A stretch of DNA of 64,000 nt from Cyanophora paradoxa CCMP329 (lineage: Eukaryota; Plantae; Glaucophyta). Shown here one piece after another: positions 13,023-59,190 of this stretch; positions within the stretch are counted from its first letter, which is position 1, and each line of letters starts with the position of its first letter. The notes beneath the pieces were generated by a model. That model was not told the origin of the DNA. It made no database searches and saw nothing but the letters and a program-made list of their open reading frames with translations. The stretch spans positions 34,622-98,621 of the forward strand of contig QPMI01000537.1 of assembly GCA_004431415.1 (NCBI GenBank), in the 5' to 3' direction. The translations under genes were made by a program, and so were the position numbers.

Positions 13023-13058
<36 letters not shown>

Positions 13059-34236: not shown

Positions 34237-36059
34237 TTAGATAGGTAGGTAGGTAGATAGATAGGTAGATAGGGAGATAGGTAGATAGGTAGAAAGCCCT
34301 CTCTCGCGCACCACGCGGTAGTGGAGGCCCGGGATGTCGGAGAGGTGCAGCTCCCGCTCCAGCTCCTCCGCTGCCCCCGCCCCGAGCCCGAGAACGACCC
34401 TAAGAAGAGGGCGCCGGGCGGGGGGGGGGAGGGGGGGGAGGGGGGGGAGTGGGGGGGGAGGGGGGGGGGGGGGGGGCTCTAGCCCAGCGCGGCTCTAGCT
34501 TGGCGGGGCGGGCGGTCCTAAGGGCCTAGAAGAAGGCGCGGGGCGGGGCCCGCGGCCCTAAGAAGAAGACGCCGGCCGGGGCCGGGGGCGAGGCGCGCCG
34601 CGCCCCCTCTAGCCAGCGCAGCCCAGCGCGGCTCTAGCTTGCTAGCTTGGCCTGGCCTGGTGCTAAGGGCGGGGCGGACCGGTGGGCGGGCTCTAGCCCG
34701 GCGCGGCTCTAGCTTTCTAGCCTGGCCTGGTCCTAAGGGCCGGGCGGACCGGAGGCGGCGCCGGGGAGGTCCTGCTTGGTCCCGAAGACGAGGAAGGGCT
34801 TCGTTCGCATCAGCGCCTCCCCCGCCATCTGAGGCCGAGGCGCTCAGATGAGGCCGAGGCGCTCAGACGCGGCGCTCAGAAGTGGCCGGGCGGGTCGCGT
34901 TTCTAGCGGGGTTTCTAGCGGGGCGGGGCGGGAGGGGGGCGCTGGGGCGGGCCTTGTGCTAGGGGAGCGCTGGGGGCGCTTATATGAGTCTAAAGCCTAG
35001 GCTAGGCTATGGGGCGGGCGCGGGGGCGGGGCGGGCCTTGTGGAGGGTGCGGCGGCACTTGTCGAGGTTCTCCGCGTCCGCCGCGTCCACCACGAAGATG
35101 CAGCAGAAGAGCTGGGGGGGTCAGGGGGGGGGTAGAGGGCCGGCTGGGAGCGAGGGGCGCGGGGGGGGGGGGGCGGCGGCCGCGGCCGGGCCGTCGGGAA
35201 GAAAAGAGCTGGCGCGGGCTAGGATTGGGTGGGGCGAGGGGGAGCGGTGGCCCTCGGCCAGGTCGTCGGGGGGAGGGGGGTACGCGGCGCACGTCGATGA
35301 GATACCTGCGGGCGGGGTAAGCGGGGCGGGGCGGGGCGGGACAGGGCGGGAGAGGCGGCGGGGGCCGCTATGCTCGGCTGGGCGGGGCGGGTCGGCGGCG
35401 GCGGCGGCGGCGGCGCGCCGCTAGGAGGCCGCGCTGCTCTGCTCTGCTCTGCTCTGCTTGGCGGGGCGCGGGGCGCTGCTCACTTGGACCAGACCTCTGG
35501 GTCGATACGGTACGAGTGGCCCAGCTCGAACTTGCCCGTCGTGAAGCTCACCTGCCGCCGCGCCGGGCCGGGCCACAGTCAGCGACGTTTTAGGTGGCGC
35601 CTAAGCGGCGGCGTCCTTCGTCTATCCGCTGCGCTCGCGCCCGCGCGGCGCTGAGCTCTCCCTCCGGCGCCCCAGCGGCCTGCCCCGCCGACTCCGGCCG
35701 TCCTCTAGCCGCGAGCGGGGCGCGCGCTGACCTTCTCGCCCCCGCACTCGACGAGCTCCGGGCGCGCTGCGGCGTGACGCGACGCGCCTCAGCGCGCCGG
35801 GCACGCGGGTGGGCGGGCGCTGCGATGGGGCGGCGGCGGCGGCGCGCCTTTGAGGATCTCGCCAACGGCTCGCCGCAGCGGGTCCATCAGCGTCTTCTTA
35901 CCCGCGCCGATGTGCCCCGTGAGGCCGATCTGCGCGCGGAGGTTCGCCGCGGCCGATGCGGGTCCGAGCTACCGCGAACGTGCAAGCTTCAGGGCGCACC
36001 GGCATCATGGCGCCGCTTGGGCCCTTGGGCTTCGACGACGGTGCAGCGGGAGCCGCCAT
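24847..36059 (-). CDS. Predicted fusion: ARL13-like Arf GTPase + long coiled coil + glutathione-synthetase-like (ATP-grasp) domain
   Basis: GTPase exons: IGLTGHIGAGKKT (G1), FELGHS (degenerate G3), CIFVVDAADAENLDKC, KPFLVFGTKQDLPGA (G4), DPAIREGLEWVI followed by coiled coil. GSS-like exons: DVARSWALHHGL, HVPLVLHPSPFPRPSF, LAVLRHDFML, MRAGYNP-KDY...WDTRTLIERSSAIKCP...HQLV, AYVLEERM, GFDCIGSAFF-stop at 24847. Confidence 0.65.
28896..29095. repeat. (CTAAT/CTAATCT)n microsatellite in intron
   Basis: Direct reading of tandem CTAAT units. Confidence 0.9.
34171..34292. repeat. (TAGA/TAGG)n microsatellite in intron
   Basis: Direct reading. Confidence 0.9.
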
Positions 36060-36799
36060 CGTTCGAGCGCGGTCCGGAGGGCTGCCTGCGTGTCGATCTT
36101 CGCCTAGTCTACGTCAGAGACGATTGCGCTACTCGTGCTGAGCCGGCTGGGCGCTACGAGGCGCGCGCCGAAACCCAGACCAGGCTCGGGCGCAAGCTCG
36201 GACGACGCACGCCTGCCACTCTCCGAGTCGTCCGCAACACGCCTCGCTGGCCTACCTCGCCGGGCGCGCTGAGCCCGATTCGGCCGTGACGAAGCACAGC
36301 GTACCCCCGTACACAAGCCAAACTTCGGTCCCAGCCGAGCGCGGCCATTACAGAAGCGCCGATAGGTGCGTGCGAGAGTTCTATGCGCTTCTTGCGCACA
36401 AGCCGCTCACTGCCGGTTGTTGCAGCCGCAATTCTCTCCGCAGCCCGACGCCGCAACGGTCGCCGCAACGATCGCTGACTGCTTCTAAGGCTTGTCTTGT
36501 ATTCCTCCATTGCGAGCGATCCGCCGCCGCCGCCGCGAACGAGCTCTTGCAATTGTTTCGCGAGGCGCGCGCCGGCGCGCGGAAAATGCGTCATCATCGC
36601 CGACGGCGAGGTAAAGCAGCTCAAGCCGAAGGAGGCGCCCAATCAGCACACGTAGCGTCGTTGCGCGGCTTGTGGTCGTACGGCATACCGAGCTCGCTGG
36701 TACGTGAAGTTAAAGCCGCGCGCCTGCAGCTGCGGCGCTAGTCGTGCAGCTCGCGCAGCTTTAGCAAGCCCGTCCGCGACTGATCGCACCTTGCGCATG

Positions 36800-39700
36800 T
36801 GCAGGGCGTCTGGCTCCTGAGGAACCGCCTCAAGTGCAAGCTCTCCGCGGCCAATACCGGTCGCGGTCTGCGGCGCGGAACCCGCCGAAGCGCGACCGCG
36901 GCCGCGGCCACGGCCGGCGCCGGCCCTGCAGCATCCCCCTTTCCCGTGTCGGTCGCAGCTCCGGCCGCGGCGCCGGCCACGGCGCCCGTCGCGGCAGCCA
37001 ACGCTGTGTCCGTCAAGACTCCGCCCCATATCGGGATCGGCTCCTTTTCGTGCACGTGCACGCCCGCTAGCGTGTGCAGCGCGTGCACGGATCTCGTCTC
37101 TACCTTGCACGAGTACCTCGGCCGCCTGCCCTCCAAGCTGCGCGACTACGCTGCAGACATGCAGGTTCGGCGCCCTCGCCCTCTCGCATCTTCCCGCTCC
37201 TCACTGCCCGGCGCAGGAGTACCTAAACACGCTCGAGCAGACCGTCGGGCCGAAGCACGCCCTGACCGCCGCCTGCTCGCTCCGCCTCGCCCTCGCCCGC
37301 GTCGATCTCCGGGAAATGGACGAGGCTGCCAGGCTCTACGAGGTACTTGTACGTGCCCTGGCCTGGATCGCTCGATCTTACGATCGCGGCGCCCCGCAGC
37401 GGGCGCGGGCGCTCTACGCCGAGGACGGGAGGCTGCGGGCGGCGAGCAGCCCCGGCGCCCTCGCCGAGCACGGCGAAGTCCTGGGCGGCGTCCACCACGC
37501 CAGGGGCGACCTTCCCTCCGCCAAGAGGGCCTACCTCGTTCGCCCCTTTGAAATCGGCTAGCCCAAGTTGGCATGGCCTCTTCTCTCTCACACACACACG
37601 TGCAGTGGGCCCTTTCGTGCCGCGAGGAGCGCCTGCGGCCGCCGCTCGTGCCGACGCCCGAGAGCTTGATCTACATGGCCAAGACGGAGTACCACCTCGG
37701 CGTCTGCGTTTTCCTCATGGGCGACAACGACGCCTCGGAGTCTTACTTCAAGATACTCCATAAATATTGATCATGACAAGCTTCCGCTGACTGCCCCCGC
37801 AGTCCGGCTACGCGCACGAGCGGGAGGCGGGGGGCGGGGCGGGGATCGCGCGGCGCTGCTGCGACCTGCCGGTCCACGCCTACCTCACCCTACTCGGGAG
37901 GGGGCACTCCGCCGCCGGCCGCCTGGACCGCCTCCACGACGTCATGCGGGTCCGTTATCGTACGACGCGGCCCGGCCCTGCCCTGGAGCTTAGCTTAAGC
38001 CCAGCCTAGATTAGAATCTTAGCTTAAGCTAAGCTTAGCTAAAGATAAAGCCTCGGCCGGTGCGGGCGTACGACGCGGCCGGGCCGGGGGCGGCGCCCGT
38101 GCTTAAGCTAAGCTTAAGCTTGCGCCGCCTCGGCCGACCCGGCCGGCCTGGCTTCGGCTGGGGCGGCGCCCGCGCTTCAGCCTTAGCTTCAGCCGCCTCG
38201 GCCGACCCGGCCGGCCTGGCTAAGCTTAAGCTCGAGTCGCCTCGCAGATGGCTGCGGCGATCGCGGAGCGCGGGCTGTGCCGCGCCTGCGTCGCGCGCGG
38301 CGACCTCGCCGGAGTCGCCAAGGCGTTCTCAAGCATCTGCTGCAAGCGCGGCGACTTCGCCAGCGCAGAGGCGTTCTTAGAGGTGGGCGGGCGATCCCGG
38401 CCCTCGCCTTGTGCTTGATAAGGACACCGAACGCGTGCCAGGCACGCGTGCCGGGGTTGCCCGGCAGGGCAGAGTCCTCCTCCTTAGACTATCTGCCCGC
38501 CGTCCTAGGCATAGCTATATAGCCTTCTGCCTGCGCGGCCTTAGACGTCGACGTCGCTGACGCCCTCTGCTCTACAGCGCCTCGTGGCGGAGACCGAACG
38601 GCTCCTGGGCGCCGAGCACCGCCGCCTCGGCTCGGCCCTCGTGCTCCTCGCCCGCTGCAAGCTGGACGCCGGCGAGCCGCCGGAGACCATCTACCCCCTC
38701 GCCCGCGTGCGCCCGGACCCGTCCCGTCCGGCCGACGCGCGCTGTACCCCTGCCGCTCGCTCACCTGAGCCGTACCGCAGCGCGGGTGGGGGGTTCTCAG
38801 GGCGACCCTGGGCGCAACCAGCCCTAGCCCCGAGGTCGAGGGGGCGATCATCCTGCTAGGGGAGCTGCTGAGCAGGGCGCCGCACTTGGACGCCGACAAG
38901 AGCGTCGATATCGTCCAGGTGCGTCCCGTTTTCGAATCCGCCCGGCCCGAACTGATGCATTAGTCTTAAGGCGTACGTGCCCGCAGCGCGTTCTGGACTG
39001 GGCATCGGCGAACGACCGCATGCCGGCGGTGAACATTGTGCTTCGGATACCACGGCACATCGCGGTCTCTCACTCAGGCCCGCCTTGCACCTCCCCGGCT
39101 GTGCATTTACCACGTAAAACCGGCAGGAGCGGGCACTCCCCAAGGAAACCCTCAGGGCGCGAATGGACAGCAGACTGGAGACGCGCAGGCGGGAGAAGGA
39201 AGAGCGGCAGCGGGCGGAGGAGGAGCGCGAGCGGGCGCGGCGGGAGGCCGAGCGCGCCGAGCGCGCCGCCCGCGACGCCGCCGACCGCGTGCGCCGTCTG
39301 AGCCGTCTGAGCCGTCTGAGCCGTCTGAGCTCGCCTTCGAATTCTGAGCTGCGCGGGGGCAGGAGGCGGCAAAGAGGCGTATGGGGGGCTCGCAGTGGGC
39401 CCCCGCTAAGAAGCTCCTTACGCGCCTTGACGCGCTTCTCAAGGTTAGTAAGCCTCTTTCCCCCCCTCCCGCCTCCTCCCCTCCTCCCCTACCCCCTCCC
39501 CCCCTCCCTTCGAATTCCGTCACACACACACACACACACACGCCCTCCCCGCCTCGAAATTAGAAAGCGCACCCCCTCCCCGGCCCTTACCCCAGCCGTC
39601 CACCCCTCCCCCCCCTCTCTCCCCCCTGCCTCCAAGAGTGCTGCCCCCCCCCCCCCCCCCCCCCCCCTCCCCCCCAATGCCTCTAAGAGGGGCGCGCAGC

Positions 39701-41017
39701 GATCGCCGGGCGACTTCGAGGGTCGCCTGCTCCGCATCCGTGCGCGAGCGAGCGAGCCGAGCCGAGCCGGTCCTCGGCTCTGATTTGATCTCGCTGACGG
39801 GCGGGCGGGCGGACCCGGGGGGGCGCAGAGTGCATGGCAGGGGCGGGCCAGCTCGAGGAGGCGGGGCGGGAGGCGGAGCGGGCCGAGCGGGCGCTCGCCG
39901 GCGCCGGCGCCAGCGCGGACGCCCTCCAGAGGTGCGCATGCGCGGTCCGGTCGCCCTCCCTCCAAGGCTCGACGGGCGCGCCCTGAGCCGCAGCGGCAGG
40001 GTTCAGGATCAGCGGCGCGTCATCGCGGGCGAGCTGCTGCAGCGCGAGGAGGCGAAGAAGCGGGAGGAGGCGCAGAGGCGGGAGGAAATGGCGGCGAAGA
40101 GGAAGGAGGAGGAAGAGGAGGCGCTGCGCGCGAAGGAACAGCGGCGCGCGCAGGAGCGGCGGCAGCTGCAGCGGAAGGAGCAGAAGCGAGAAGAGGCGCG
40201 CCCGCAGGCGGAGGGAGCCGAGCGGCAGCGTGCGGCGGAGCAGCTGCAGCAGCGGAGGCGCGAGGAAGAGCGGCGGGCCGCGCAGGCAGCTGCAGCCGCG
40301 GCAGCGCCAGCGGAGACCTCAAGCCCGCCGCCTTCCGAGGCCGGCCCCAGCTCGGGCCGTTGGTCGGAGGCTGCGGCTGCGGCTGCCGCCTGCCGCTTCT
40401 TCGCGAGGGGCCTCTGCCGCAACGGCGACCGCTGCCGGTGCGGGAGGTTGGGCGGGCCGGGGCTTCGAATTCCCCGCGCGCCCCTAGCCTCTCGCGCGGT
40501 CGTCCCGCCCCTCTGTCGACTGTTTGTTTGGCAGGTACCGGCACGAGGCGAGGGCGGACGCCGGGGCGGGGGCGGGCGACCTCGAGCCTGGGCCCGCGCC
40601 GGCGCCTTTCGCGGCCCCCGAGGGGCAGATCCAGGGCCCGCGGGCGAGCCCGGGCCCGAGTGCGCCATCTGCCTCGGGCCCCTGTCTGCCGGCCCGCCCG
40701 CCGCCGCCCTCCCCTGCCGCCGTGCGCCCCGCACCCAAAGCGTCTCTTGCTTCTCTAATTATAATGCCTAAGATTTACCTTGCGCTTGCATCTCCGCAGA
40801 CCGCTTCCACGGCCCCTGCATCGAGGCGTGGAGAAGGGCGATCGCGAGCTCGGGCGGGGCCGCCGCCGGCCGCCGCCCCTGCCCCTTCCGCTGCCCCTCC
40901 CGGCGCGCCCCACTCGGCCCTACCTGCCCCCGGCCTCTTCTCCACTCGAGCCTCTTCCCAGTAATTTATTCGCCTTTCAGGCGTTTAGCTTGCAATTGCT
41001 GCACGACAGCCGATTAG
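36800..41017 (+). CDS. TPR-repeat protein with coiled coil, CCCH zinc finger and C-terminal RING-H2 (putative E3 ligase); start uncertain (may extend to ~36290)
   Basis: TPR-like LGGVHHARGDLPSAKRAY, YHLGVCVFLMGDNDASESYF, RLLGAEHRRLGSALVLLA; CRFFARGLCRNGDRCRYRH (CCCH); CAICL...LPC-HRFHGPCIEAW...CPFRC (RING-H2). Confidence 0.75.
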
Positions 41018-41515
41018 CTGACGTCTTATCGTCTGCTCTGACCTATAGCTATATATATCAAGGGGGGTCGACTGCTTTTCCCCGCAGCGCTGGCAAACGC
41101 ACAAGCACACTGCGACCGCATGTAAAGCGCAGGCTGCGCAGCCCGCCGAGCGATCGACTCGGCGACCTGCTGCCGGCGCCGCTACGGCATGCGCAGCCGC
41201 GCGCTAGATATGCAGCTGCGGGCCTAGGCGCGAACGGTACCGACAGCTTGCATGTGATCATGACCAGGACAGTCGGATATCTAGATCTTATAAATCAACC
41301 GCGCGACCCTGAGAAGAGGGCGCCGCGCGGGGGAGGGGGCGCGGCCCAGCGCGGCTCTAGCTTGCTAGCTTGGTCCTAAGAAACCTGGTCTTGCAGCCCC
41401 AGAACGACCCTAAGAAGAGGGCGCCGGGCGGGGGCGAGGCGCGATGCTCTAGCTTGGCCGGCCCGGGCGGGGGTGGGGGTGGGGCGGGGGGCGCCGCGCA
41501 GGCCGTGAACAGTTC

Positions 41516-42519
41516 GCATTTGGACACGTACTCAAAACGCAGGTCCGGGCTACAAGTGTGGGAATGTACACTGCGGCCGCCGCGGCCGCGGGCCCAGCCC
41601 ACCAGCGAACTGGCCGGCCGGGCCCTGCGTGGCCCCCTAAGGAGAGTAATGCGCCTCCCCGCGGACACTCTGGCTAGCTAAATAGCTACATGTGCCCGCA
41701 TGCGCGGCGTGGTGCTGCATCGCGTCTTGTGGCGGCGGGGGTCGTCTAGGGCGGTGGCGGGAGCCCCTACAGGCCCATGGAGGGAACCCGACATGAGGTC
41801 AGCCTGCGGTGGGCGCGAAGAGGGGTCAGATCGTAATCCAAAATCAAAACAAACGGGCCGCACTCGATCGACGAGCCTCCCACCCAGAGGAGCGCCTGCG
41901 CGGGCGGAGGACGATCAGCCGCCGAGCAGGCCGACGCTCCAGGGCACCTGCGCGCGCGGTGCGCACCTGGGGCGCGTCTTGGACGGGAGCCCCTACAGGC
42001 CCTGTGGGGGGCCCGACATGGAGTCAGCCTGCGCCGGAGGGCGAAAAAGGGGGTCAGATCGATATATCGAAAAAGCCTTTGTTTTCAAAGGGAACGGGGC
42101 GCACTCGATCGACGTGCCTCCCGCCAAAGGCGAACGCCTGCGCGCCGAAGGGCGCAACGATGCATCAGAGGACCATCGCGGCAGGACTTCATGAAGGACC
42201 AGGGCGCAGAACGAACTGGGCATTTGCTCGAGCACGATGGATGTGCCCGAAGCCTCGCCAGGCCGCGCGGAGGCGGCCCGCCGCTGATTCTGGTGACCTG
42301 TAACGCGTGCATTCGCTGAGCATGCGGACCACGATGAGGGGGAAGACGACGGGAAGACGCCAACGCACCTTGCAATGCTGCACGGAATGGAATGTGACCG
42401 CGAAACCAGTGTTGACCTGCTATATACGTGGTTCATAATGCAACGTTTCAGCTTTCGACTTTCGAGCATGAAAGGCGAGGGAAAAAGTGGTTTTCGAGGG
42501 GAAAACGTAAGGAGGTCGG
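41516..42519 (+). mobile_element. Dispersed repeat element, copy B, flanked by an 11-bp direct repeat GTGAACAGTTC (candidate TSD)
   Basis: Matches the reverse complement of 12281-13562; GTGAACAGTTC at 41505-41515 and 42520-42530. Confidence 0.6.
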
Positions 42520-42722
42520 GTGAACAGTTCCGCTTCGAATTTAAATTTAAATCATTGAGTCTTGTTGAAATCATTGAATTGCATTCCACTCCTAGAGATC
42601 TCCTCTCCTCTAGATCTCCTCTCGCTGCACGCGCGCGCATGCGCAGCTTCAGCTGCAGGCGCCCCCGCGAATATGGTGCGCCGTCTATCTGCATCACCGA
42701 TGCGGACCGCTGATGCCTGCAT

Positions 42723-43003
42723 TGTCGCATCCGACATTATAGCGGATGCTCATTTATATGTGAGCCGCTAGGGCTCTAGATCACGTCAGCCTTCGAGCTG
42801 CTGGACCGACGGCGCCTAGGCTAGTTAGAGCGCCGCGGTCACTTGTATTTGTGTCGGGGTACGCCGTATCTGGACGGGTACACCCAGTGAGTTGGATCTT
42901 AGCGACTACAGCAGCGACACTCGCCATTCCCCGCCCTGCCGAGCTTGCACTCCGCACGGGCTTCCCGCGCGCACGATTAGACACACTAATCTCGCACGCG
43001 ACA
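42723..43003 (+). repeat. 5' LTR (281 bp)
   Basis: TG...CA, direct repeat of 47670-47949. Confidence 0.95.
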
Positions 43004-43028
43004 GGCGCCATTCTGCCGGAATCGAACC
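43004..43028 (+). other. Primer-binding site, complementary to a tRNA 3' end through the T-loop
   Basis: GGCGCCATTCTGCCGGAATCGAACC; reverse complement GGTTCGATTCCGGCAGAATGGCGCC is T-loop + stems + G + CC. Confidence 0.7.
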
Positions 43029-43478
43029 TTCAAGGGTCGCTGGACTTCCAGGCTCTGCCCGCGCCGCGCGCCTCGCCGCGCCGCCTCGCATAAGCTTAAA
43101 GAGATCTGGGACGAGCTTTCCGGCGACCGCCACTTGTGGCGTGCTACGCTGCACACTTCGGCCGCGTCGCCTCTGGGCGGGCTGATTGTGCTTCGGAAGT
43201 GACTCTAGTGTCCCTCGCGGGCTTCGGTGCATCCCCAGACCGAAGCGCACGCACGAGCTCTCGCGAGAGTCTCAATCATTGTCTGTGTCCCTTCGCCGGT
43301 TGCACGCTTCGCGTCGCACACTGTGCCCCGGAGTCTGCCAGCGGCAGTTCTCTGAGTGTCCCTGAGTCGGTTCTCGCACGCCACGAGAAGACCGTGTCCC
43401 GGATCTGCAGTGCGCTGCAGATCAAATCTTGTGCCCTGGCATTCTGTTCTCGTGGCTATACGCTGCAAAGAGAGCAAT

Positions 43479-45050
43479 ATGTCGAACACTTCTGAACTGA
43501 TCAGTTCTGAAGTCCGAAGCCGGCTGTCTGCCCTCGCGCACATCGAGCCCGCCCAGGGCTATGCTGCTGTGCATGTGCAGCAACTCGCTGCTGGCTCCGC
43601 CGCGGCGGATGATGATCCCGTGCGGATCGCATTCCTGCCTGCAAATCCGCGCCTCGCCGATGGCGACCGGTTCCGGAAGGACGTGCGGAACTTCCAGTCG
43701 TCCCTGCCGACGAAGTACTTGTTTGGCCCGGATTCTGCCGGTAGCCAGGAGTACTCAAAGTCAGAGGCGCTAGCCGGAGTGATTGTCGGGCGTATCCGCC
43801 CCGGAGCTCTCCGCGCTGAGATTGAGCGCAAGCGCGACCTCTATGAGGCCTCTGTCACTGCCCTCGAGCATGACCGTGCCAGGCTCGCTCGTCTCGAAGC
43901 TGTCCCGGCAGACCTGCGGTCCGCCGAGGATGATGCTGCTATCCTCACGCTGCAGCAGAGCTGTGTGCGTGATCAGGCCTCAATCGTGGCCGTGCGCGAC
44001 TCGTACTTGCGTGCCCCCGGGCTGCTTGACACGATCACTGCGTGGATTCATGAGACCCGCCCGCACGCGGCCCGCCGGGCTCTCACTGAGCCGTACACGG
44101 GCGAGGACCCCCGCTCGTGGCATGACTGGTTCTTGCCCCTCGTACGGCACACGCTGCCGCCGGGCCAGCAGTTTGCTGCGTACTACGCGGACTGCCTGCG
44201 CACCGCGCTCGAGGCCCGCTCGACGAGCGAGGACCCTGAATATCAGAACCTCGATGTTCGGATGGCCGGGTTCGCCCAGGCGAACGAGCGCACGCTGCGC
44301 GAGTTCCTCACGGCGCTGCGGCAGCGCCTCCTCGCCAATAACGGCGCTATCTCGCCGCTCGAGCTTGACAGTATTTTCGTCGAGCAGTGCAAGCGCCACG
44401 GCTGCCGCGCCGTGTTCCCGCCTGCGCTGGCAGCTGCCGATCGCGAGCTGCCCGAGGCAAAACGGACCCGTATCCTGCAGGCACAGTTTGCCGAGGATGA
44501 GTCCTCGTCCGCCGGCACCCCTGCCGCTGCACGAGCCTCGAGCTCCCCTGGCCCTGCTGAGCCTCGGGATGCAAATTCCAGGGCTCAGCCCTCGATTTCT
44601 GCACGTGGGTCCTCTTGGGCCGTGCAGTCCCGCTCGCCTGCCGCTGTTGCGGAGGTGCTGCGGCGCATGTCTGAGCTCGGGTACCCGGAGTACCCCCCCT
44701 CAGACTGCTACGGGTGCTCGGATGACCCCAGCGTCCCCGTTGAGGCGCGACGTCATTGGGCAAATGTGTGCCCCAAGCGCACCCCGTTCGCCCCAGTACG
44801 CCCCTGGGTCCGCCGCGGCCAGTACTATCGGCAAAAGCGATCCCAAGAGGATGCTGCCGACGAGCAAGAGTACTGGTCCGACGAGAGAAAACAGGACCCA
44901 GACGAAGTCTGCGGTCGCTGCGGCGAGGCAGGGCACCACCACAGTGCCTGCCCCGACCCCCCCACACGGGCTGCTCGCTCGAGCTCTGCGCTTCCCGCGC
45001 CCTCGAGCTCAGCGGCTCCACCCGCGCGCCCTGCGGCGGAGCGTGAGTGA
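43479..45050 (+). CDS. gag: Gag-like protein with zinc knuckles
   Basis: Intronless ORF inside the LTR element; CGRCGEAGHHHSAC (CX2CX4HX4C) and an atypical CYGC-x12-H-x4-C. Confidence 0.85.
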   Translation: MSNTSELISSEVRSRLSALAHIEPAQGYAAVHVQQLAAGSAAADDDPVRIAFLPANPRLADGDRFRKDVRNFQSSLPTKYLFGPDSAGSQEYSKSEALAGVIVGRIRPGALRAEIERKRDLYEASVTALEHDRARLARLEAVPADLRSAEDDAAILTLQQSCVRDQASIVAVRDSYLRAPGLLDTITAWIHETRPHAARRALTEPYTGEDPRSWHDWFLPLVRHTLPPGQQFAAYYADCLRTALEARSTSEDPEYQNLDVRMAGFAQANERTLREFLTALRQRLLANNGAISPLELDSIFVEQCKRHGCRAVFPPALAAADRELPEAKRTRILQAQFAEDESSSAGTPAAARASSSPGPAEPRDANSRAQPSISARGSSWAVQSRSPAAVAEVLRRMSELGYPEYPPSDCYGCSDDPSVPVEARRHWANVCPKRTPFAPVRPWVRRGQYYRQKRSQEDAADEQEYWSDERKQDPDEVCGRCGEAGHHHSACPDPPTRAARSSSALPAPSSSAAPPARPAAERE

Positions 45051-47657
45051 GCAAGTGCACCAGCTGCACTAGGGTCTGGCTGGCTTGGGCAGCCGCCAGA
45101 AAAGCCCTGCTCGTAACCGCGATCCGATTTTTCGCGGAGCCTGGGCCTCCCCTGCGAGAGCCCCATGTGTCGCTGTAATAAGCGGCCCATATACCTGCCT
45201 CTGAGCAGGGTGTATATTTGTACATTTGTACATAATTTCAGACGTCGGGGACGACGTCTTCCGAGAGGAGGAGTGAGCACGGGCATGCTGCACGAGCAGT
45301 GCAAGCGCTGCCGCTCGCCCTCCCGCCCCGAGGCTTGCTTGGATCTGTGGCCGCTGGCCAAGATCAAATAGCACTCGCGAAAGAAGAGCCCCAATCGCGT
45401 GCTGTCGAGCACCCTGAGCGGCCACGGGTGCCCCTCTTTCCGAGAGGAGGAGCACCCCTTTCGCCGAAGCCTGCGAAGAGGCGCCACGGCCGGTGCCGCA
45501 ATTGCGAGCCCTCCTGCTTGCCTCGATTTAGATCCATGGCCGGTGGCCGAGATCTGATCTCAAACCCCAACCGGGTACCAGTCTTTCCGAGAGGAGGAGT
45601 CCCTCCAAGACTCTCTCGTCGAAAGCCTGCGATTTCGCGCGGCGCACTGCAGTTGCTGAGCCTTGCGGTCAGAGCTTCAAAGGCTTGAGCCTGATCATGA
45701 GCCGAGCCGCCAAGCTGCAGCTGCAGCTGGCCCTCGCGGGAGGCTTTGAGCTCGAGCCCCCACACTCGAGCGAGCAAGCGGCCTTAGCAGAGATGAGGCG
45801 TGATCCACAGAGCCTTGAGCTCGGGATGCACTCTCAAGAGAAGCTCGATGCCTGAGGCACGATGCCCAGCCGGCGAGCGCCTGACGGCGTGCCGTGAGCT
45901 CGACAGGCGGCCCGTGAGCCCCTGCAAAAATTGTGAGCCTCCGAGCTCCAATGAAGGGCGAGCTTGAGCACAAGGTGCCCTCGAGAGCTCGAGCCCTGAA
46001 ATAAAGTCCCGGCACGCCCCGAGGCGGCCAGGCAATAGCAGGCTCTGCCATGAGCTTTGCAGTTCTTTGAACTCAAGTCCTGGTGACGCCCGCCAAGTTG
46101 GCGCCCAGGCCGCGCGAGTCTGTTCCGGGATCATCGGATCCGGACTGAACGTTAGCGGGGCGAGGGGCCCAGTGCCCAGCCCAAAGACCTGGTGAACTGC
46201 CCGACGAGTTGGCATCCAGGCGGCACACTGCGGCTGCACTGCGGCAGGCCGAGTGGTGCGACGGGCTGCGAGCCCTGCTCACAAGCTAAGAGCTTCGAGA
46301 CCCGGCGGCCAGCCTGTTGAGGCGGCGCCAGAAGGACACCCATGATTGCCAGTTGTGAGTCCGTCTCGCATGTGGCCGGTCCGGCCCCAGGGCGGTCGTG
46401 ACGGCGGGTGGTCCTGGCCAGGAGCGGCTTGAGAAAGCCGGCTCCCAGCCGCGTCCGGCCCCACACGAGGGCGAGGACAAGAAGCGGCGATACCTGCCTC
46501 CGAGCAGAGTGAGCGCAAGAGGCCACCCGTGAGGGGCTAGCGCTGGGCTGAGACGGGCCTCCGAGCCCCGCGAAACATCGCGAAAGTCCCGGGCAGAAAG
46601 GGTGAGCCACGGGCGGCCGGGGCCTTGAGCACAGCTCGGCACGGCGACAGGGCAAGCGTCCCTCAGTAAGTCCCGAGCGGAAGGATGAGCCGCGGGCGGC
46701 CGTTAGCCTTGAGCACAGCTCGGCGCGGTGACAGGGCGAGAGACCCTTGCAAAGACCTAGCCGAGCCCTAGGACGCGCCTTGCGTCTGCAGAAGGGTCGG
46801 TGGGCGGCTGTGACGCCGGGTTCTGCCCGGGTACAGCGACAGGGGATGACAAATTCCCCCTCCGTGTAAGACCTGGCGTGGTACCAGGGCGCGCCTTGCG
46901 CCGGCAGGGGTACACGCAGGCGGTCGTGACGCCGGGTTCCTGCCCCGGGTACGACGACGGGGAAGCAAAAATACCCCCAGCAGGGCTCCGCACCAGGGAC
47001 GCTTGGTGGCGGATCGCCTGAGAGGGCCACGTCCCCTTTTAATAGATGTGCACCCGCGGGTCGGGCAGGGTACCTCCCGTCGCGCAATGGCGTGGAAGGG
47101 CACCTTGTGGGCGCGTCTAGCCTCGCCCTGGAGATTCTAGCTCCACCGCCGTCGGGGATTCCCGATCCGACGCCGTGATAATGCAGTGAAGGCACGGTGT
47201 TTGCCTGAGCAGCGGCGCTAGTCGAGCTGCTTAGCCCTAAGTTTTGGGACGGGCATTTCGCTGTGGGCTGCTGAGCGCTGTCGCGAGCGCTGCGCCCCGC
47301 GTTGCTGTTGCAGCGTGTGCTTTCGCAGCTAACGTGCTGCACAATCGCGATGAGGGCAGGGCTCCCTCGGCTTCCGTCCCCTTCCGCTCGCCTCGTGCGG
47401 GTTACCTGGGCCGCCGGCCCGAAGTTGGACCTCGCCCCCTGGGCACTACACGCTGGAGTCGTGCCGCGCCGGCACTTGCCGGGCATCAGTCTTTTCTATT
47501 CCCGGCAGTCGACGCCGGGCATGGACATGTACATAGCCGGACTTGGTGTCTTTTCTATTCCGGCAGTTGCCGGACACGGACGGACGTTGAGCCTTTTTCG
47601 ATTCCGGCAGTAGCCGGTCGATATGTATTTATTTAGACCCGCGCGGACGCGGGATCC

Positions 47658-47668
47658 GAGAGGAGGAG
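47658..47668 (+). other. Polypurine tract
   Basis: GAGAGGAGGAG one base upstream of the 3' LTR. Confidence 0.85.
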
Positions 47669-47669
47669 T

Positions 47670-47949
47670 TGTCGCATCCGACATTATAGCGGATGCTCAT
47701 TTATATGTGAGCCGCTAGGGCTCTAGATCACGTCAGCCTTCGAGCTGCTGGACCGACGGCGCCTAGGCTAGTTAGAGCGCCGCGGTCACTTGTATTTGTG
47801 TCGGGGTACGCCGTATCTGGACGGGTACACCCAGTGAGTTGGATCTTAGCGACTACAGCAGCGACACTCGCCATTCCCCGCCCTGCCGAGCTTGCACTCC
47901 GCACGGGCTTCCGCGCGCACGATTAGACACACTAATCTCGCACGCGACA
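47670..47949 (+). repeat. 3' LTR (280 bp)
   Basis: TG...CA, followed by TSD TGCAT. Confidence 0.95.
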
Positions 47950-48057
47950 TGCATGCGAAAATCCGATTTTCGCAGCCGGAGACACGATCGAGGGCCAAGC
48001 GCCGCGGCTTCAGTGGCCCCAACGCCGCGGCGTCAGTGGCCCAACGCCGAAGCGGAA

Positions 48058-51345: not shown

Positions 51346-51550
51346 TAGTATACTAGTAGCCTAGTGCTAGTATTGGTAGTATGTACTAGCGCAGAAACAA
51401 ATCCGACCGTCGGACCGATGATATCGATCGTGTCTTTTGGCACTTCGGGATCACGGCGGGATCGGATATCGAATCATATTAACGATACCGTAATACACAA
51501 TATATTATGTCATGCAAATTTATGTCGTTTAAACCCGAGCCTTCAGACTC

Positions 51551-54500
51551 TTTCTACATGCATCATTGAGTTGTCCTTCTAACCCAGGGCATTGCGCAGA
51601 GCCGGCTCTGCCTTCGCGTACGCGTGCGCCTCGGGCGCGTCGCCGTGACGCGACGACGGTAATGGTGGCCACTCCGCCCCGGACGCCCCGTGCGCCACGC
51701 CGCGCTCGCGCCATCCCTTCCCCCGCGCCGGGCCCGCGGCGCTCTCTGAGGCGGCGGGACAGGCCGCGGGCGGCTGTGGTGAGCGGCGGCTGTGGTGAGC
51801 AGGCAGGCCCTCGCGGCCTCCGCCAGCAGCTCATCGCCGCCTCCGCCTCGGGCGTCGGCGTGTGCGCGCCGGCCCCCGCCCCGGCCTCCCGCCCCCGGCG
51901 CTTGCTGAGAAACAAGCCGCAGGCCGGCGGGGCGCGGGGCGCTGCGGCTCATGGAGGTGGCGGCGCTCGTCCTCGCCGCCGCCCTCAAGGCCGGCAACGA
52001 GCGCCTGTGCGCCGGCCGCCCGCGCCCCGCCCCCGCCCCCCCCGCCGCCTCGCCCTGAGGGGCGCGGGGTGCCCAGCAGCCTGACGATGGCGGCGGACAA
52101 GTACGCGAGGCTCTTCGCGCACGCCGACGCCCCCGCGGCCCTCGCCCTGCAGCTCCTCCACCGCCACCGCGTCGACTCCCCGCTCCTCGCCGCCCAGCCC
52201 ACCCCGCCCGCTTCTCCCTCGTCGCCCTCCTCGGCCTGCCCGCCCCGCCCGCTCGTCCCTCGCGGGGCCTGACGGGGCGGGGCGGGGACAGATCCCGGGG
52301 CGGCCTCCTTCACGTCCCTCTTCCGGGCGCACGCGGCCGGCGCCTGAGACCGCGCCATCGCCATGCAGGCGCCCGGACCCCTCCCGCCCCGCCCCCCGCC
52401 CCGCCCGCCGCGCCCTCTGACGGAGCCGCAGGGCGCGCCCCCGCCGCCCCTCCCTGCCCTCGTACACATCCCCGAACTCCTCTCTTCCCTCGTCTCCAGT
52501 GCGCCGTACCCCTCCCGAACCCGGCGCGGCGCCTCGTACCCGCCCCGACGCCGGCGCCGCTCCGGCAGACGCGCCGCTGGTGGCCGGCTCGGCGACCTCT
52601 TCCACGAGCTCCCCAGCCGCGCCAGCGAGCTCCCCAGCCACGCCAGCAGGCCCGTACCCCCCCCCCAACTGGACTCGGCGTACCCCCTCAACCCCGGGCG
52701 CGCAGGGCGATGTACAGGGCGCTGCTGGAGGTGCTGGGGGGCCCGGTACCCCCAGGACGTCGGTCAGGCCTGCCTGGCCGCCGCCGTCGTCCTCCCCGAG
52801 CCCCCATGGGCGCCCCCGCCGGCGCGCCGCTGGCGCGCTGCAGCGCCGCCGGCTGGCGCCGCCGGCTGGCGCCGCCGGGCTGCACGGGCGCCGCCACGGG
52901 CCCGAGGGCGCATCCCAGCGAACACGCTGCTCAACTGTCCGTGCGAGCTTTCTTCGCCCCGCCCTCCCCCCCTCCCCCCCCTAGCTTGCTTCGTCCGCCG
53001 TTTTTTGGAGCGGATCCAACGCTGCCGTTTTTTCGCCCCCCCCCCCCCCCCCCCTCTGCCGTTTTTTGGAGCGGAACCAACGCTGACGCTGGCCGTGCAG
53101 CACGCATCCGCCGGCAAAGAGCTCTACTGTGCGTCGCCCCGGCCCTCCACTGAATGAAATGACTGACTGAATTCGACTGGCGGTGCAGTGGGTTAGACGT
53201 TGCTCTAGCTGCAGCAACGGCGGCCGGGGAGGCTGATCGCGGTGCCGTCCCTGCCCCGCCCACCCGAGCATGCGCAGCGGCTTCTGACGGTGCCGCGCCT
53301 CTTGGGCCAGGAAGCTGGCGGAAGCCCGGAGCCAGTGACCATCGCTGTTCCAGCCTGGCTAGCGGATCACACGTACGCCCGTACCCCTTCCGCGGCATCA
53401 ATATATAACCCTCCCCGCTCATTCTCTCCGCACTACAGGCAGGAAGCAGCGAAGCAGAGAGCAGCGCGCGCCCGAGTTCTTCAGCAGCGACGTCGACCGG
53501 CCGAGAGGAAGTCAATTTGATCCGTCATATAGGGGCAGGAAAGCATGTAGAAAGCGTTTCAGGAAGCATTTTTAGATCAGTGTAGATGCGCTATAATGTC
53601 TGAGCAGCGTTTGGTAGTCGGCAACCCGAGAAATTCGGTCTGCCAGCTGCCATACAAGGTGGTTGGGAATGTATGGCAGTTGGCAAGCGAGGGGTACGGG
53701 GAAATCCGTGCAAATCGGGCGAGAATTGTGTTAATTTACGACAAAATTAAAACATAAAATAGACCGAATTACCTAATTAGAAAAAAATTGCGCTATTTTA
53801 TCGAAATTTCGGCTCCCACCCCCCGATCAAAATCCCCACCGTGTGGCACCAAATTAAAATATTGAGCACGAAATTGGCCACTTCCTAGCGCGAGCTCTAG
53901 GTCGCCGGGCCGGCGCTCCTCGCCCAGGGCGCGTACAGACTCCGCGCATGTTCCAACGCCTTCATAGACATATATATAAGATAGAGCACCCCTGTGAAAC
54001 TTCAGAATCCGGGTTCTCAATAGTAGGCGGGCCTTAGCGCGAAATTGCCTAGGGGCGGCATCGAACCCGGGTTGTTCCATTCCAACAGAATTCTTGAAGT
54101 TCGGGTACCTTAGCGGGACTTAACAATAGGTAGCTAGCGACTCCGTGACGGGCCGGAGGTTCCTAGCGATCTTAGCTGGGTTTATGAGAAGGCTCTATTT
54201 CTACATGCATCATTGAAGTTGTCCTTCTAACCCAGGGCATGCGCAGAGCCGGCTCTGCCTTCGCGTACGCGTGCGCCCTCGGGCGCGTCGCCGTGACGCG
54301 ACGACGGTAATGGTGGCCACTCCGCCCCGGACGCCCCGTGCGCCACGCCGCGCTCGCGCCATCCCTTCCCCCGCGCCGGGCCCCGGGCTCCTCTGAGGCG
54401 GCGGCGGCTGTGGTGAGCGGGCGGCTGTGGTGAGCAGGCAGGCCCTCGCGGCCTCCGCCCAGCAGCTCATCGCCGCCTCCGCCTCGGGCGTCGGCGTGTG

Positions 54501-57440
54501 CGCGCCGGCCCCCGCCCCGGCCTCCCGCCCCCCGGCGCTTGCTGAGAAACAAGCCGCAGGCCGGCGGGGCGCGGGGCGCTGCGGCTCATGGAGGTGGCGG
54601 CGCTCGTCCTCGCCGCCGCCCTCAAGGCCGGCAACGAGCGCCTGTGCGCCGGCCGCCCCGCCCCCGCCCCCGCCCCCGCCCCCGCCGCCTCGCCCTGAGG
54701 GGCGGTGCCCAGCAGCCTGACGATGGCGGCGGACAAGTACGCGAGGCTTTCGCGCACGCGACGCCCCCGCGGCCCTCGCCCTGCAGCTCCTCCACCGCCA
54801 CCGCGTCGACTCCCCGCTCCTCGCCGCCCCACCGCCCACCCCGCCGCTTCTCCTCGTCGCCCTCGCCTCGGCCCCGCCCGCCCGCGTCCTCGCGGGGCCT
54901 GACGGGGCGGGCGGGGACAGATCCCGGGCGGCCTCCTTCACGTCCTCTTCCGGGCGCACGCGGCCGGCGCCTGAGACCGCGCCATCGCCATGCAGGCGCC
55001 CGGACCCCTCCCGCCCCGCCCCCGCCCCGCCCCGCGCGCCCTCTGACGGAGCCGCAGGGCGCGCCCCCGCCGCCCCTCCCTGCCCTCGTACACATCCCGA
55101 ACTCCTCTCTTCCAGTACCCCTCCCGAACCCGGCGCGGCGCCTCGTACCCCGCCCCGACGCCGGCGCCGCTCCGGCAGACGCGCCGCTGGTGGCCGGCTC
55201 GGCGACCTCTTCCACGAGCTCCCCAGCCGCGCCAGCGAGCTCCCCAGCCACGCCAGCAGGCCCGTACCCCCCCCCCCCAACTGGACTCGGCGTACCCCCC
55301 TCAACCCCGGGCGCGCAGGGCGATGTACAGGGCGCTGCTGGAGGTGCTGGGGGGCCCGGTACCCCCCAGGACGTCGGTCAGGCCTGCCTGGCCGCCGCCG
55401 TCGTCCTCCCCGAGCCCCCCATGGGCGCCCCCGCCGGCGCGCCGCTGGCGCGCTGCAGCGCCGCCGCTGGCGCGCCGGCTGGCGCCGCCGGGCTGCACGG
55501 GCGCCGCCACGGGCCCGAGGGCGCATCCCAGCGAACACGCTGCTCAACTGTCCGTGCGAGCTTTCTTCGCCCCGCCCCCCCCCCCCCCCCCCCCTAGCTT
55601 GCTTCGTCCCGCGTTTTTTGGAGCGGATCCAACGCTGCCGTTTTTTTCGCCCCCCCCCCCCCCCCTCTGCCGTTTTTGGAGCGGAACCAACGCTGACGCT
55701 GGCCGTGCAGCACGCATCCGCCGGCAAAGAGCTCTACTGTGCGTCGCCCCGGCCCTCCACTGAATGAAATGACTGACTGAATTCGACTGGCGGTGCAGTG
55801 GGTTAGACGTTGCTCTAGCTGCAGCAACGGCGGCCGGGAGGCTGATCGGGTGCCGTCCCTGCCCGCCCACCGAGCATGCGCCAGCGGCTTCTGACGGTGC
55901 GCGCCAAAGCTGGCGGAAGCCCGGAGCCAGTGACCATCGCTGTTCCAGCCTGGCTAGCGGATCACACACGTACGATCAAATATACCCCTCCCCGCTTCCG
56001 CGCATCAGCTCAGGAAGCAAGCGAAGCAGAGAGCAGCGCGCGCCCGAGTTCTTCAGCAGCGACGTCGACCGGCCGAGAGGAAGTCAATTTGATCCGTCAT
56101 ATAGGGGCAGGAAAGCATGTAGAAAGCGTTTCAGGAAGCATTTTTAGATCAGTGTAGATGCGCTATAATGTCTGAGCAGCGTTTGGTAGTCGGCAACCCG
56201 AGAAATTCGGTCTGCCAGCTGCCATACAAACCCAACACAGGTGGTTGGGAATGTATGGCAGTTGGCAAGCGAGGGGTACGGGGAAATCCGTGCAAATCGG
56301 GCGAGAATTGTGTTAATTTACGACAAAATTAAAACATAAAATAGACCGAATTACCTAATTTTGGGGGGGAGAAACACGAAAATTGCGCTATTTTATCGAA
56401 ATTTCGGCTCCCACCCCCCGATCAAAATCCCCACCGTGTGGCACCAAATTAAAATATTGAGCACGAAATTGGCCACTTCCTAGCGCGAGCTCTAGGTCGC
56501 CGGGCCGGCGCTCCTCGCCCAGGGCGCGTACAGACTCCGCGCATGTTCCAACGCCTTCATAGACATATATATAAGATAGAGCACCCCTGTGAAACTTCAG
56601 AATCCGGGTTCTCAATAGTAGGCGGGCCTTAGCGCGAAATTGCCTAGGGGCGGCATCGAAATTGTTCCATTCCAACAGAATTCTTGAAGTTCGGGTACCT
56701 TAGCGGGACTTAACAATAGGTAGCTAGCGACTCCGTGACGGGCCGGAGGTTCCTAGCGATCTTAGCTGGGTTTATGAGAAGGCTCTATTTCTACATGCAT
56801 CATTGAAGTTGTCCTAACCCAGGGCAAGAGCCGGCTTGCTGCTCGCGTACGCGCGTCGCCGTGACGCGACGACGGTAATGGTGGCCACTCCGCCCCGGAC
56901 GCCCCGTGCGCCACGCCGCGCTCGCGCCATCCCTTCCCCCGCGCCCCGCGGCGCTCCTCTGAGGCGGCGGGACAGGCCGCGGGCGGCTGTGGTGAGCGGG
57001 CGGCTGTGGTGAGCAGGCAGGCCCTCGCGGCCTCCGCCCAGCAGCTCATCGCCGCCTCCGCCTCGGGCGTCGGCGTGTGCGCGCCGGCCCCCGCCCCTCC
57101 CGCCCCCCGGCGCTTGCTGAGAAACAAGCCGCAGGCCGGCGGGGGCGCGGGGCGCTGCGGCTCATGGAGGTGGCGGCGCTCGTCCTCGCGCGCCGCCCTC
57201 AAGGCCGGCAACGAGCGCCTGTGCGCCGGCCGCCCCGCCCCCGCCCCGCCCGCCCCCGCCGCCTCGCCCTGAGGGCGCGGGGTGCCCAGCAGCCTGACGA
57301 TGGCGGCGGACAAGTACGCGAGGCTCGCGCACGACCGCGGCCCTCGCCCTGCAAGCCACCACGCGTCGACTCCCCGCCCACCCCGCCCGCTTCTCCCTCG
57401 TCGCCCTCCTCGGCCTGCCCCGCCCCGCCCGCTCGTCCCT
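51551..57440 (+). repeat. Tandem triplication of a ~2.6-kb unit (starts 51551, ~54198, partial ~56788) carrying an intron-containing gene fragment
   Basis: TTTCTACATGCATCATTGA start and the following sequence recur; copies differ by many small indels. Confidence 0.9.
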
Positions 57441-58448
57441 TGTGGAGGGTGCGGCGGCACTTGTCGAGGTTCTCCGCGTCCGCCGCGTCCACCACGAAGA
57501 TGCAGCAGAAGAGCTGGGGGGGTCAGGGGGGGGTAGAGGTGGGAGCGAGGGGGCGCGGGGGGGGGGGGGGGCGGCGGCCCGCGGCCGGGCCGTCGGGAAG
57601 AAAAGAGCTGGCGCGGGCTAGGGATTGGGTGGGGCGAGGGGGAGCGGTGGCCCTCGGCCAGGTCGTCGGGGGAGGGGGGGTACGCGGCGCACGTCGATGA
57701 GATACCTGCGGGCGGGGGTAAGCGGGGCGGGGCGGGGCGGGACAGGGCGGGAGAGGCGGCGGGGGCCGCTATGCTCGGCTGGGCGGGGCGGGTCGGCGGC
57801 GGCGGCGGCGGCGGCGCGCCGCTAGGAGGCCGCGCTGCTCTGCTCTGCTCTGCTCTGCTTGGCGGGGCGGGGCGCTGCTCAGACCTCTGGGTCGATACGG
57901 TACGAGTGGCCCAGCTCGAACTTGCCCGTCGTGAAGCTCACCTGCCGCCGCGCCGGGCCGGGCCACAGTCAGCGACGTTTTAGGTGGCGCCTAAGCGGCG
58001 GCGTCCTTCGTCTATCCGCTGCGCTCGCGCCCGCGCGGCGCTGAGCTCTCCCTCCGGCGCCCCAGCGGCCTGCCCCGCCGACTCCGGCCGTCCTCTAGCC
58101 GCGAGCGGGGCGCGCGCTGACCTTCTCGCCCCCGCACTCGACGAGCTCCGGGCGCGCTGCGGCGTGACGCGACGCGCCTCAGCGCGCCGGGCACGCGGGT
58201 GGGGGGCGCTGCGATGGGGCGGCGGCGGCGGCGCGCCTTTGAGGATCTCGCCAACGGCTCGCCGCAGCGGGTCCATCAGCGTCTTCTTACCCGCGCCGAT
58301 GTGCCCCGTGAGGCCGATCTGCGCGCGGAGGTTCGCCGCGGCCGATGCGGGTCCGAGCTACCGCGAACGTGCAAGCTTCAGGGCGCACCGGCATCATGGC
58401 GCCGCTTGGGCCCTTGGGCTTCGACGACGGTGCAGCGGGAGCCGCCAT
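57438..58448 (-). pseudogene. Truncated duplicate of ARL13-like GTPase 5' exons
   Basis: G1 through CIFVVDAAD...LHK exons duplicated, then joined to unrelated sequence at ~57438. Confidence 0.6.
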
Positions 58449-59190
58449 CGTTCGAGCGCGGTCCGGAGGGCTGCCTGCGTGTCGATCTTCGCCTAGTCTA
58501 CGTCAGAGACGATTGCGCTACTCGTGCTGAGCCCGGCTGGGCGCTACGAGGCGCGCGCCGAAACCCAGACCAGGCTCGGGCGCAAGCTCGGACGACGCAC
58601 GCCTGCCACTCTCCGAGTCGTCCGCAACACGCCTCGCTGGCCTACCTCGCCGGGCGCGCTGAGCCCGATTCGGCCGTGACGAAGCACAGCGTACCCCCGT
58701 ACACAAGCCAAACTTCGGTCCCAGCCGAGCGCGGCCATTACAGAAGCGCCGATAGGTGCGTGCGAGAGTTCTATGCGCTTCTTGCGCACAAGCCGCTCAC
58801 TGCCGGTTGTTGCAGCCGCAATTCTCTCCGCAGCCCGACGCCGCAACGGTCGCCGCAACGATCGCTGACTGCTTCTAAGGCTTGTCTTGTATTCCCTCCA
58901 TTGCGAGCGATCCGCCGCCGCCGCCGCGAACGAGCTCTTGCAATTGTTTCGCGAGGCGCGCGCCGGCGCGCGGAAAATGCGTCATCATCGCCGACGGCGA
59001 GGTAAAGCAGCTCAAGCCGAAGGAGGCGCCCAATCAGCACACGTAGCGTCGTTGCGCGGCTTGTGGTCGTACGGCATACCGAGCTCGCTGGTACGTGAAG
59101 TTAAAGCCGCGCGCCTGCAGCTGCGGCGCTAGTCGTGCAGCTCGCGCAGCTTTAGCAAGCCCGTCCGCGACTGATCGCACCTTGCGCATG

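What the first reader, a model, noticed from the sequence alone, without database searches (positions are those of the whole stretch)
43004..43028. LTR-element PBS has selenocysteine-tRNA (13-bp, 9/4) geometry
Seen: the reverse complement reads GG-TTCGATT-CCGG-CAGAATGGC-G-CC, i.e. 13 nt between the T-loop and a G discriminator. Known: canonical tRNAs have 12 (5+7), while eukaryotic tRNA-Sec has 13 (4+9) with G73. The match is unusually long (25 nt, through the T-loop) and lacks the T that would pair with the terminal A. Inference: the element may be primed by tRNA-Sec, a primer I do not recognise for LTR retrotransposons.
Basis: partly seen in the sequence, partly recalled or inferred. Interest (0 to 1): 0.75.

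Follow-up and report, generated by a model that had tools for sequence, protein, structure and literature searches.

The report
Algal retrotransposon possibly primed by selenocysteine-tRNA
A jumping gene in a single-celled alga carries an unusually long tRNA landing site whose spacing fits the rare selenocysteine tRNA, so it may start copying itself with a primer not reported for such elements, but an ordinary tRNA pairing with one unpaired base is nearly as likely.

Summary
43004-43028 is the primer-binding site (PBS) of an intact Gag-only LTR element (42723-47949; LTRs differ by one indel, 5-bp TSD, PPT). The host is Cyanophora paradoxa by protein labels. Its complement is a tRNA 3' end with 13 nt between T-loop and G73. 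Public contigs from four runs show no substitution or indel there, and two subfamilies share it, so it is no sequencing error. The host has Sec machinery and glaucophytes keep tRNA-Sec. U55, C61, C66 and G73 fit tRNA-Sec. Against it, G64 and A67 occur in 0 of 140 eukaryotic tRNA-Sec seed sequences, yeast Ty elements inherit their PBS (so a bulge can be fixed), and natural 7/5 tRNAs differ from this end by one extra base plus one change. The host tRNA genes could not be fetched, so the decisive match is untested. New here: the element's 3' UTR holds a perfect 14-nt complement of the distal PBS half (47597-47610; 1 of 1000 shuffles), plus two degenerate copies, like Ty1 CYC5/CYC3 cyclization. 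tRNA-Sec primer about 0.45, bulged canonical tRNA about 0.35.

The parts
42718..42722 (+). left target-site duplication TGCAT
42723..43003 (+). 5' LTR, 281 bp, TG...CA
   Evidence: differs from the 3' LTR by one indel
43004..43028 (+). primer-binding site, 25 nt complementary to a tRNA 3' end from C75 through the T-loop to G52; 13 nt between T-loop and G73; no T for A76
43013..43026 (+). distal half of the PBS, complementary also to the element's 3' UTR (CYC5-like, inferred)
43029..43038 (+). 10 nt shared by both subfamilies before they diverge; does not continue the tRNA T-stem
43479..45050 (+). Gag-like ORF, 523 aa, with CX2CX4HX4C knuckle at residues 478-491 of the near-identical P0001; no Pfam hit itself
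45051..47465 (+). internal region with no pol domain; three further PPT-like GAGAGGAGGAG copies at 45263, 45442, 45589
47494..47508 (+). degenerate anti-PBS motif 1 (one mismatch, one extra C), 5' arm of a small hairpin
47553..47566 (+). degenerate anti-PBS motif 2 (one mismatch), 5' arm of a small hairpin
47597..47610 (+). perfect 14-nt complement of 43013-43026 (CYC3-like, inferred), 47 nt before the PPT
   Evidence: 1 of 1000 shuffles reach 14; predicted duplex
47658..47668 (+). polypurine tract, one T before the 3' LTR
47670..47949 (+). 3' LTR, 280 bp, TG...CA
47950..47954 (+). right target-site duplication TGCAT

Best explanation
The 25-nt site is the primer-binding site of an intact, Gag-only LTR retrotransposon, most likely read by the host alga's selenocysteine tRNA, and its distal half is predicted to pair also with the element's own 3' end. 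Shown: LTRs, TSD, PPT, Gag-like ORF, no pol, family-wide PBS, perfect 14-nt 3' complement. Inferred: a partner element supplies RT and integrase; the RNA circularises through 43013-43026 : 47597-47610 as Ty1 does through CYC5/CYC3; the free proximal 9 nt act as a toehold for the tRNA acceptor end, which can then invade to a 25-bp duplex; synthesis must start from C75 (a CC-ended or trimmed tRNA), because both LTRs end in CA and A76 has no partner. The model predicts a host tRNA-Sec gene beginning GCCATTCTG (or with G-U pairs) and with a CCGG/CCGG T-stem.
For: 13-nt geometry and G73 define tRNA-Sec; U55, C61, C66, the three invariant eukaryotic positions inside the match, all fit; 11 of the 13 stem positions carry letters seen in the seed alignment, and UGGC ends occur there; the complement of A67/C66 gives the conserved U6-G7, so A67 would pair with U6 (inference). 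Host has SecS and eEFSec; glaucophytes retain tRNA-Sec. No indel in 4 of 4 runs, two subfamilies share 35 nt while LTR and leader vary; a neutral bulge would be expected to revert in some copies (inference). 13-nt ends of this type are rare among non-Sec tRNAs: 5 viral matches (3 tRNA-like) against at least 124 with 12 nt; 31 matches in 185,579 prokaryote genomes, 1 scored as tRNA.
Against: G64 in 0 of 140 and A67 in 0 of 140 seed rows (C64 136, U67 138, by eye; the seed appears animal-heavy). Ty1 and Ty3 inherit their PBS, so invariance does not prove an exact tRNA copy. None of the 13-nt control matches was a tRNA-Sec. Canonical 7/5 phage tRNAs L169/L170 differ from this end by one extra base and one change. 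The extra base can be placed at 43011/43012, the border of the part paired with the 3' UTR. Rfam gives no tRNA-Sec hit on the short stretch. No precedent was found in print, so the prior is low. SBP2 was not found in this species.
Confidence: 0.45

Rival explanations
1. The primer is an ordinary 7/5 host tRNA with G73 (Lys, Arg, Asp or similar); the PBS carries one extra, inherited base that bulges out. The tRNA would pair mainly with the proximal 8-9 nt while the distal half is kept for 5'-3' cyclization.
For: PBS is inherited in Ty1/Ty3. Canonical tRNAs ending GGTTCGATTCCGGCAGACGGCG-CCA exist (L169, L170). G64 and A67 are then unremarkable. The extra base can sit at the border of the 14-nt cyclization site. 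G73 with a GGC end is shared by Asp, Arg and Trp tRNAs in the viral 12-nt set. Such primers are common in LTR elements (recalled).
Against: A bulge 8-9 nt from the primer end kept without exception in two diverged subfamilies is harder to explain than a paired base. The match runs perfectly on both sides of the supposed bulge, through the T-loop and two bases beyond the 3' UTR match.
Confidence: 0.35
2. The primer is a non-Sec tRNA or tRNA-like RNA with a true 13-nt branch (bulged acceptor stem), encoded by the host or by the autonomous partner element.
For: 2 of 5 viral 13-nt matches are CUA tRNAs with an extra base at the T-stem/acceptor junction. Bacterial tRNAs with a bulged 8/4 fold are described (PMC5389517 abstract). 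It would explain exact invariance and the two non-Sec letters together.
Against: Such tRNAs are rare. The window's element holds no tRNA gene.
Confidence: 0.12
3. The site is a relic of tRNA priming, and the element now primes from its own RNA: the 3' UTR motif at 47597-47610 pairs with the PBS and is cut to give the primer end.
For: Perfect 14-nt complement, with further predicted pairs GGC:GCC at 43004-43006; predicted pairing near 1 in a two-window cofold; the missing T removes the need to explain A76.
Against: The proximal 9 nt fit a tRNA acceptor end and CC, and the last two bases of the match fit tRNA G52/G53, neither matching the 3' motif. A primer must end beside the LTR edge, where pairing with the 3' motif is only 3 bp. 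Ty1 shows that such a site serves cyclization beside a tRNA primer.
Confidence: 0.08

Closest known systems
Ty1 (S. cerevisiae) PBS with CYC5/CYC3 cyclization (PMC4974528, passages read)
   Same: A site next to the PBS that is complementary both to the primer tRNA and to a sequence at the 3' end of the element's RNA.
   Different: Ty1 is autonomous and uses tRNA-iMet with a 10-nt PBS, and CYC5 matches the D arm. Here the doubly used site is the T-arm part of one continuous 25-nt match, and the 3' site comes in three copies just before the PPT.
Eukaryotic tRNA-Sec, 9/4 fold (PMC5330540, passages and supplement file 1 parts 4-6 read)
   Same: 13 nt between T-loop and discriminator, G73, U55, C61, C66, GGC end.
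   Different: G at 64 and A at 67, seen in 0 of 140 seed rows each; anticodon and variable arm cannot be seen from a PBS.
Non-autonomous Gag-only LTR elements (TR-GAG type; name recalled, no call)
   Same: LTRs, PBS, PPT, 5-bp TSD and a single Gag-like ORF with zinc knuckle; no pol.
   Different: The Gag has no Pfam capsid hit and no relatives outside 9 clusters in 1.84 billion proteins; all named relatives come from one alga.
tRNA-Lys/Arg/Asp-primed gypsy elements with TGGCG-type PBS (recalled, no call)
   Same: PBS opens with GGCGCC, the complement of a G73 tRNA with a GGC acceptor end.
   Different: Those are about 18 nt, include the T for A76 and have 12-nt spacing.

Membership tests
LTR retrotransposon | direct LTRs with TG...CA ends | tested here: met
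   281 and 280 bp, one indel
LTR retrotransposon | 4-6 bp target-site duplication | tested here: met
   TGCAT on both sides
LTR retrotransposon | PBS after the 5' LTR and PPT before the 3' LTR | tested here: met
LTR retrotransposon | gag gene | tested here: inconclusive
   CX2CX4HX4C motif present; relatives hit zf-CCHC; no Pfam hit for this protein; low-confidence model gave no capsid match
autonomous LTR retrotransposon | pol (protease, RT, RNase H, integrase) | tested here: not met
   no Pfam domain in 11 frames; longer relatives align only to the Gag part
Ty3/gypsy versus Ty1/copia | order of RT and integrase in the partner | tested here: inconclusive
   5 longer relatives hold no RT or integrase domain; P0031 ends with an FDTGA protease-like motif
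eukaryotic tRNA-Sec 3' end | 13 nt between T-loop and discriminator | tested here: met
eukaryotic tRNA-Sec 3' end | G73 and invariant U55, C61, C66 | tested here: met
   against the sequence
eukaryotic tRNA-Sec 3' end | near-invariant C64 and U67 | tested here: not met
   G64 0 of 140, A67 0 of 140 (by eye); not among the strictly invariant positions
eukaryotic tRNA-Sec 3' end | identity with the host's own tRNA-Sec gene (UCA anticodon, long variable arm) | not testable with these tools
Ty1-type CYC5/CYC3 cyclization | perfect complement between PBS-near site and 3' end | tested here: met
   14 nt, 1 of 1000 shuffles
Ty1-type CYC5/CYC3 cyclization | conservation or covariation across copies; need for the pairing in reverse transcription | not tested

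The most novel reading that the evidence does not exclude
A young LTR retrotransposon family of a glaucophyte alga primes reverse transcription with a CC-ended selenocysteine tRNA, through a 25-nt PBS whose T-arm half doubles as an RNA cyclization site; its mobility would then depend on the host's single, selenium-linked tRNA-Sec, and the PBS reveals a tRNA-Sec with two letters not seen in the eukaryotic seed set.
Probability: 0.4. Interest if true: 0.72.

Novelty: new variant of a known kind. Interest (0 to 1): 0.5.

Why it matters
If true, it adds the 21st-amino-acid tRNA to the primers used by LTR elements; five literature searches found no such case (CC-licensed PMC and bioRxiv only). tRNA-Sec is usually single-copy, so the element would compete with selenoprotein synthesis and could not live in lineages that lost Sec, such as land plants. 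The claim can be settled in minutes by anyone with the host genome. Even if the primer is ordinary, the PBS half that pairs with three 3' UTR motifs is a Ty1-like cyclization signal in a distant lineage.

Tried and rejected
Assembly-error indel: rejected. Recovering the host tRNA gene by laying contigs on 52 bases: nothing shorter than about 29 matching bases was laid, so the 23-nt gene match could not show. Exact 23-mer: 0 viral hits; 1 metagenome hit, L001, with no tRNA call, lying in what reads as protein-coding DNA, taken as chance. Rfam on the element and on the PBS: no tRNA-Sec hit; too short to be informative. Host tRNA sequences were sought in supplements of PMC5330540, PMC6627142, PMC13578239, PMC7678280 (one picture PDF not searched) and PMC13437025, and in main texts: not found; bioRxiv supplements and the PlantRNA database were out of reach and may hold them. 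A GTC-CAGC-GAC stretch (complement of 43036-43045) resembles the tip of the Sec variable arm, but it is 2 nt off register, is not kept in the second subfamily and forms the element's own hairpin: not used. CGCCATTC in the LTR (42922) as a second PBS: 8 nt, chance level. Gag relatives in viral contigs: none of 103 candidates. Gag model pLDDT 57, only coiled-coil matches. Atlas search not answered. No RNA holder was listed on record. PMC10415148 gave nothing on positions 64/67. Earlier scan findings: none for this genome or sequence.

Full report
The element. The site lies in an intact LTR element at 42723-47949. The LTRs are 281 and 280 bp, start TG, end CA and differ by one indel; TGCAT flanks both ends; a purine tract at 47658-47668 precedes the 3' LTR. 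One long ORF (43479-45050, 523 aa) carries a CX2CX4HX4C knuckle. None of 11 frames of the element and its flank hits a pol domain. The protein is 98% identical to P0001, whose cluster of 9 and two related clusters of 5 and 3 are all labelled Cyanophora paradoxa. A profile search of 1.84 billion proteins gave 9 hits, so the family is narrow. Five longer relatives exist; they align only to the Gag part and hold no RT or integrase domain, so the superfamily is open. The element is a young, non-autonomous copy (inference from LTR identity and missing pol).

The observation. 43004-43028 follows the LTR end directly, and its complement is GG-TTCGATT-CCGGCAGAATGGC-G-CC. A general tRNA-3'-end pattern occurs once in the window, here. 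Public contigs show no other letter and no indel over 43004-43055 in 4 of 4 runs; a 58-nt contig covers 43004-43038 without difference at depths 1225, 1148 and 3332 in three runs, and in two runs the graph then splits into two branches of similar depth (651/672 and 1673/1814). The LTR and leader are variable in the same kind of data. So the 13-nt spacing and the missing T are properties of the family. Contigs drop rare variants, and depth is no copy number.

For tRNA-Sec. The Secmarker paper (PMC5330540; passages) gives 13 bp for the acceptor plus T stems of tRNA-Sec against 12 for others, G73, and six invariant eukaryotic positions, of which U55, C61 and C66 fall inside the match; all fit. 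The host has SecS and eEFSec homologues (PMC6627142 supplement passages), though SBP2 was not found, and glaucophytes keep tRNA-Sec (PMC3531208 and PMC13578239, passages). As a control for how often other tRNAs show this spacing, the pattern GGTTCGATTCC-N8-GGCGCCA gave 5 viral matches against at least 124 for N7 (scan stopped at its limit); 102 of those 124 were called tRNAs, mostly Asp, Arg and Trp. Of the 5, two are CUA tRNAs with an extra base, one is a weak interrupted tRNA, none is Sec. In prokaryote genomes it gave 31 matches, 0 called by ARAGORN and 1 scored as tRNA by Rfam. These are prokaryotic and viral proxies only.

Against tRNA-Sec. In the 140-row eukaryotic seed alignment (supplement file 1, parts 4-6, counted by eye) position 64 is C in 136 (A 2, U 2, G 0) and position 67 is U in 138 (C 2, A 0). 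The PBS complement has G64 and A67. Both could still pair (C50-G64, U6-A67; inference), and the seed appears animal-heavy, but two unseen letters count against. A review (PMC7472051, passage) states that Ty1 and Ty3 inherit their PBS, unlike retroviruses, so an extra base could be fixed in a family. Two phage tRNAs with canonical 7/5 geometry end GGTTCGATTCCGGCAGACGGCG-CCA (L169, L170), one extra base and one change away. A looser 13-nt pattern gave 6 viral matches, none a tRNA.

The longest complement of the PBS inside the element is 14 nt, at 47597-47610, 47 nt before the PPT; 1 of 1000 dinucleotide shuffles of the internal region reaches 14. Two degenerate copies lie at 47553-47566 and 47494-47508; they are probably duplicates and not independent. 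Each is the 5' arm of a small hairpin, and the region folds better than 199 of 200 shuffles (z -2.9). A cofold of two 90-nt windows puts the 14-bp duplex at pair probabilities of 0.96-1.0 for 13 pairs and 0.6 for the last, without tRNA. Ty1 has the same logic: CYC5 lies downstream of the PBS, is complementary to the tRNA and pairs with CYC3 at the 3' end (PMC4974528, passages). This gives the distal PBS half a second job, and the supposed extra base can be placed at its border (43011/43012), which helps the bulge rival.

Mechanism. Shown: anatomy, family-wide PBS, 3' complement. Inferred: helper-supplied RT and integrase; cyclization; a 9-nt toehold for the tRNA acceptor end, then invasion to 25 bp (duplex -52.8 against about -36 kcal/mol for the 3' pairing, ignoring the tRNA's own fold); priming from C75, since both LTRs end in CA and the TSD is exact. 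How a CC-ended primer arises is unexplained. The match also runs 7 nt past A58, where plus-strand copying normally stops (established knowledge), so its length is likely selected for annealing or cyclization.

Weighing. The Sec reading needs a rare primer and two unusual letters; the canonical reading needs a fixed insertion in the primer's first ten bases, kept in two subfamilies. Rough odds by judgement: Sec 0.45, bulged canonical 0.35, other 13-nt RNA 0.12, self-priming 0.08. The host tRNA genes would decide, but no genome is held, a 23-nt match is too short to be laid, and the motif was in none of the supplements searched.

Literature. Searches for selenocysteine tRNA or tRNA-Sec with primer binding site and retrotransposon or LTR gave 0 papers, 2 general tRNA reviews (listing only), 38 papers of which the 25 listed are unrelated by title, and 30 listed of 338 with no mention of selenocysteine. 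The genome paper of the species gives LTR elements 1.77% of the genome and no PBS analysis in the passages seen (PMC6704402). Also seen: PMC7678280, PMC7539508, PMC2790888, PMC10415148 (passages, nothing bearing), PMC5389517 (abstract), PMC13437025 (supplement search only). Repeat databases and subscription journals were not searched.

Verdict. Observation confirmed; interpretation plausible but unproven, about even with an ordinary primer. New variant of a known kind; interest 0.5.

Noticed in passing
window 243-3629: Tandem array of about 25 copies of a 139-140 bp unit, 85% GC; satellite-like.
   Followed up: no
window 35036-41650 and 57438-64000: 6.6 kb direct repeat, 98.7% identical, holding a CCCH zinc-finger frame; segmental duplication or large mobile element. 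Its first copy ends about 1 kb before the LTR element.
   Followed up: no
window 12281-13565 and 41513-42445: Inverted copies of an about 1 kb repeat just left of the element; the flank at 42650-42722 also has high contig depth, so the element may sit in another repeat.
   Followed up: no
window 45263, 45442, 45589: Three extra copies of the PPT core GAGAGGAGGAG, each after CTT(T)CC, just behind the Gag stop; possible central PPTs or protein-binding repeats.
   Followed up: no
window 21777-23367 (-): Alg9-like mannosyltransferase (PF03901) split over three frames; introns or assembly indels.
   Followed up: no
window 21617-21689 (-): ARAGORN tRNA-Leu(aag) call is GC-rich sequence without a T-loop; likely false.
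   Followed up: yes
window 10473-11013: 42-nt terminal inverted repeats around 457 nt; MITE-like.
   Followed up: no
window 51548-57440: Two to three diverged tandem copies of a 2.6-3.3 kb unit, 89-93% identical.
   Followed up: no
L159:117-146: A bacterial stretch ending CCGG-TTCGATT-CCGG-CTCCCTGGC-G-CCA, a 9/4-like tRNA end with no ARAGORN or Rfam call; possibly an att-site remnant.
   Followed up: partly
L002:71-146 and L003:71-146: Phage CUA-anticodon tRNAs with an extra base between T-stem and acceptor stem; amber-suppressor-like.
   Followed up: partly
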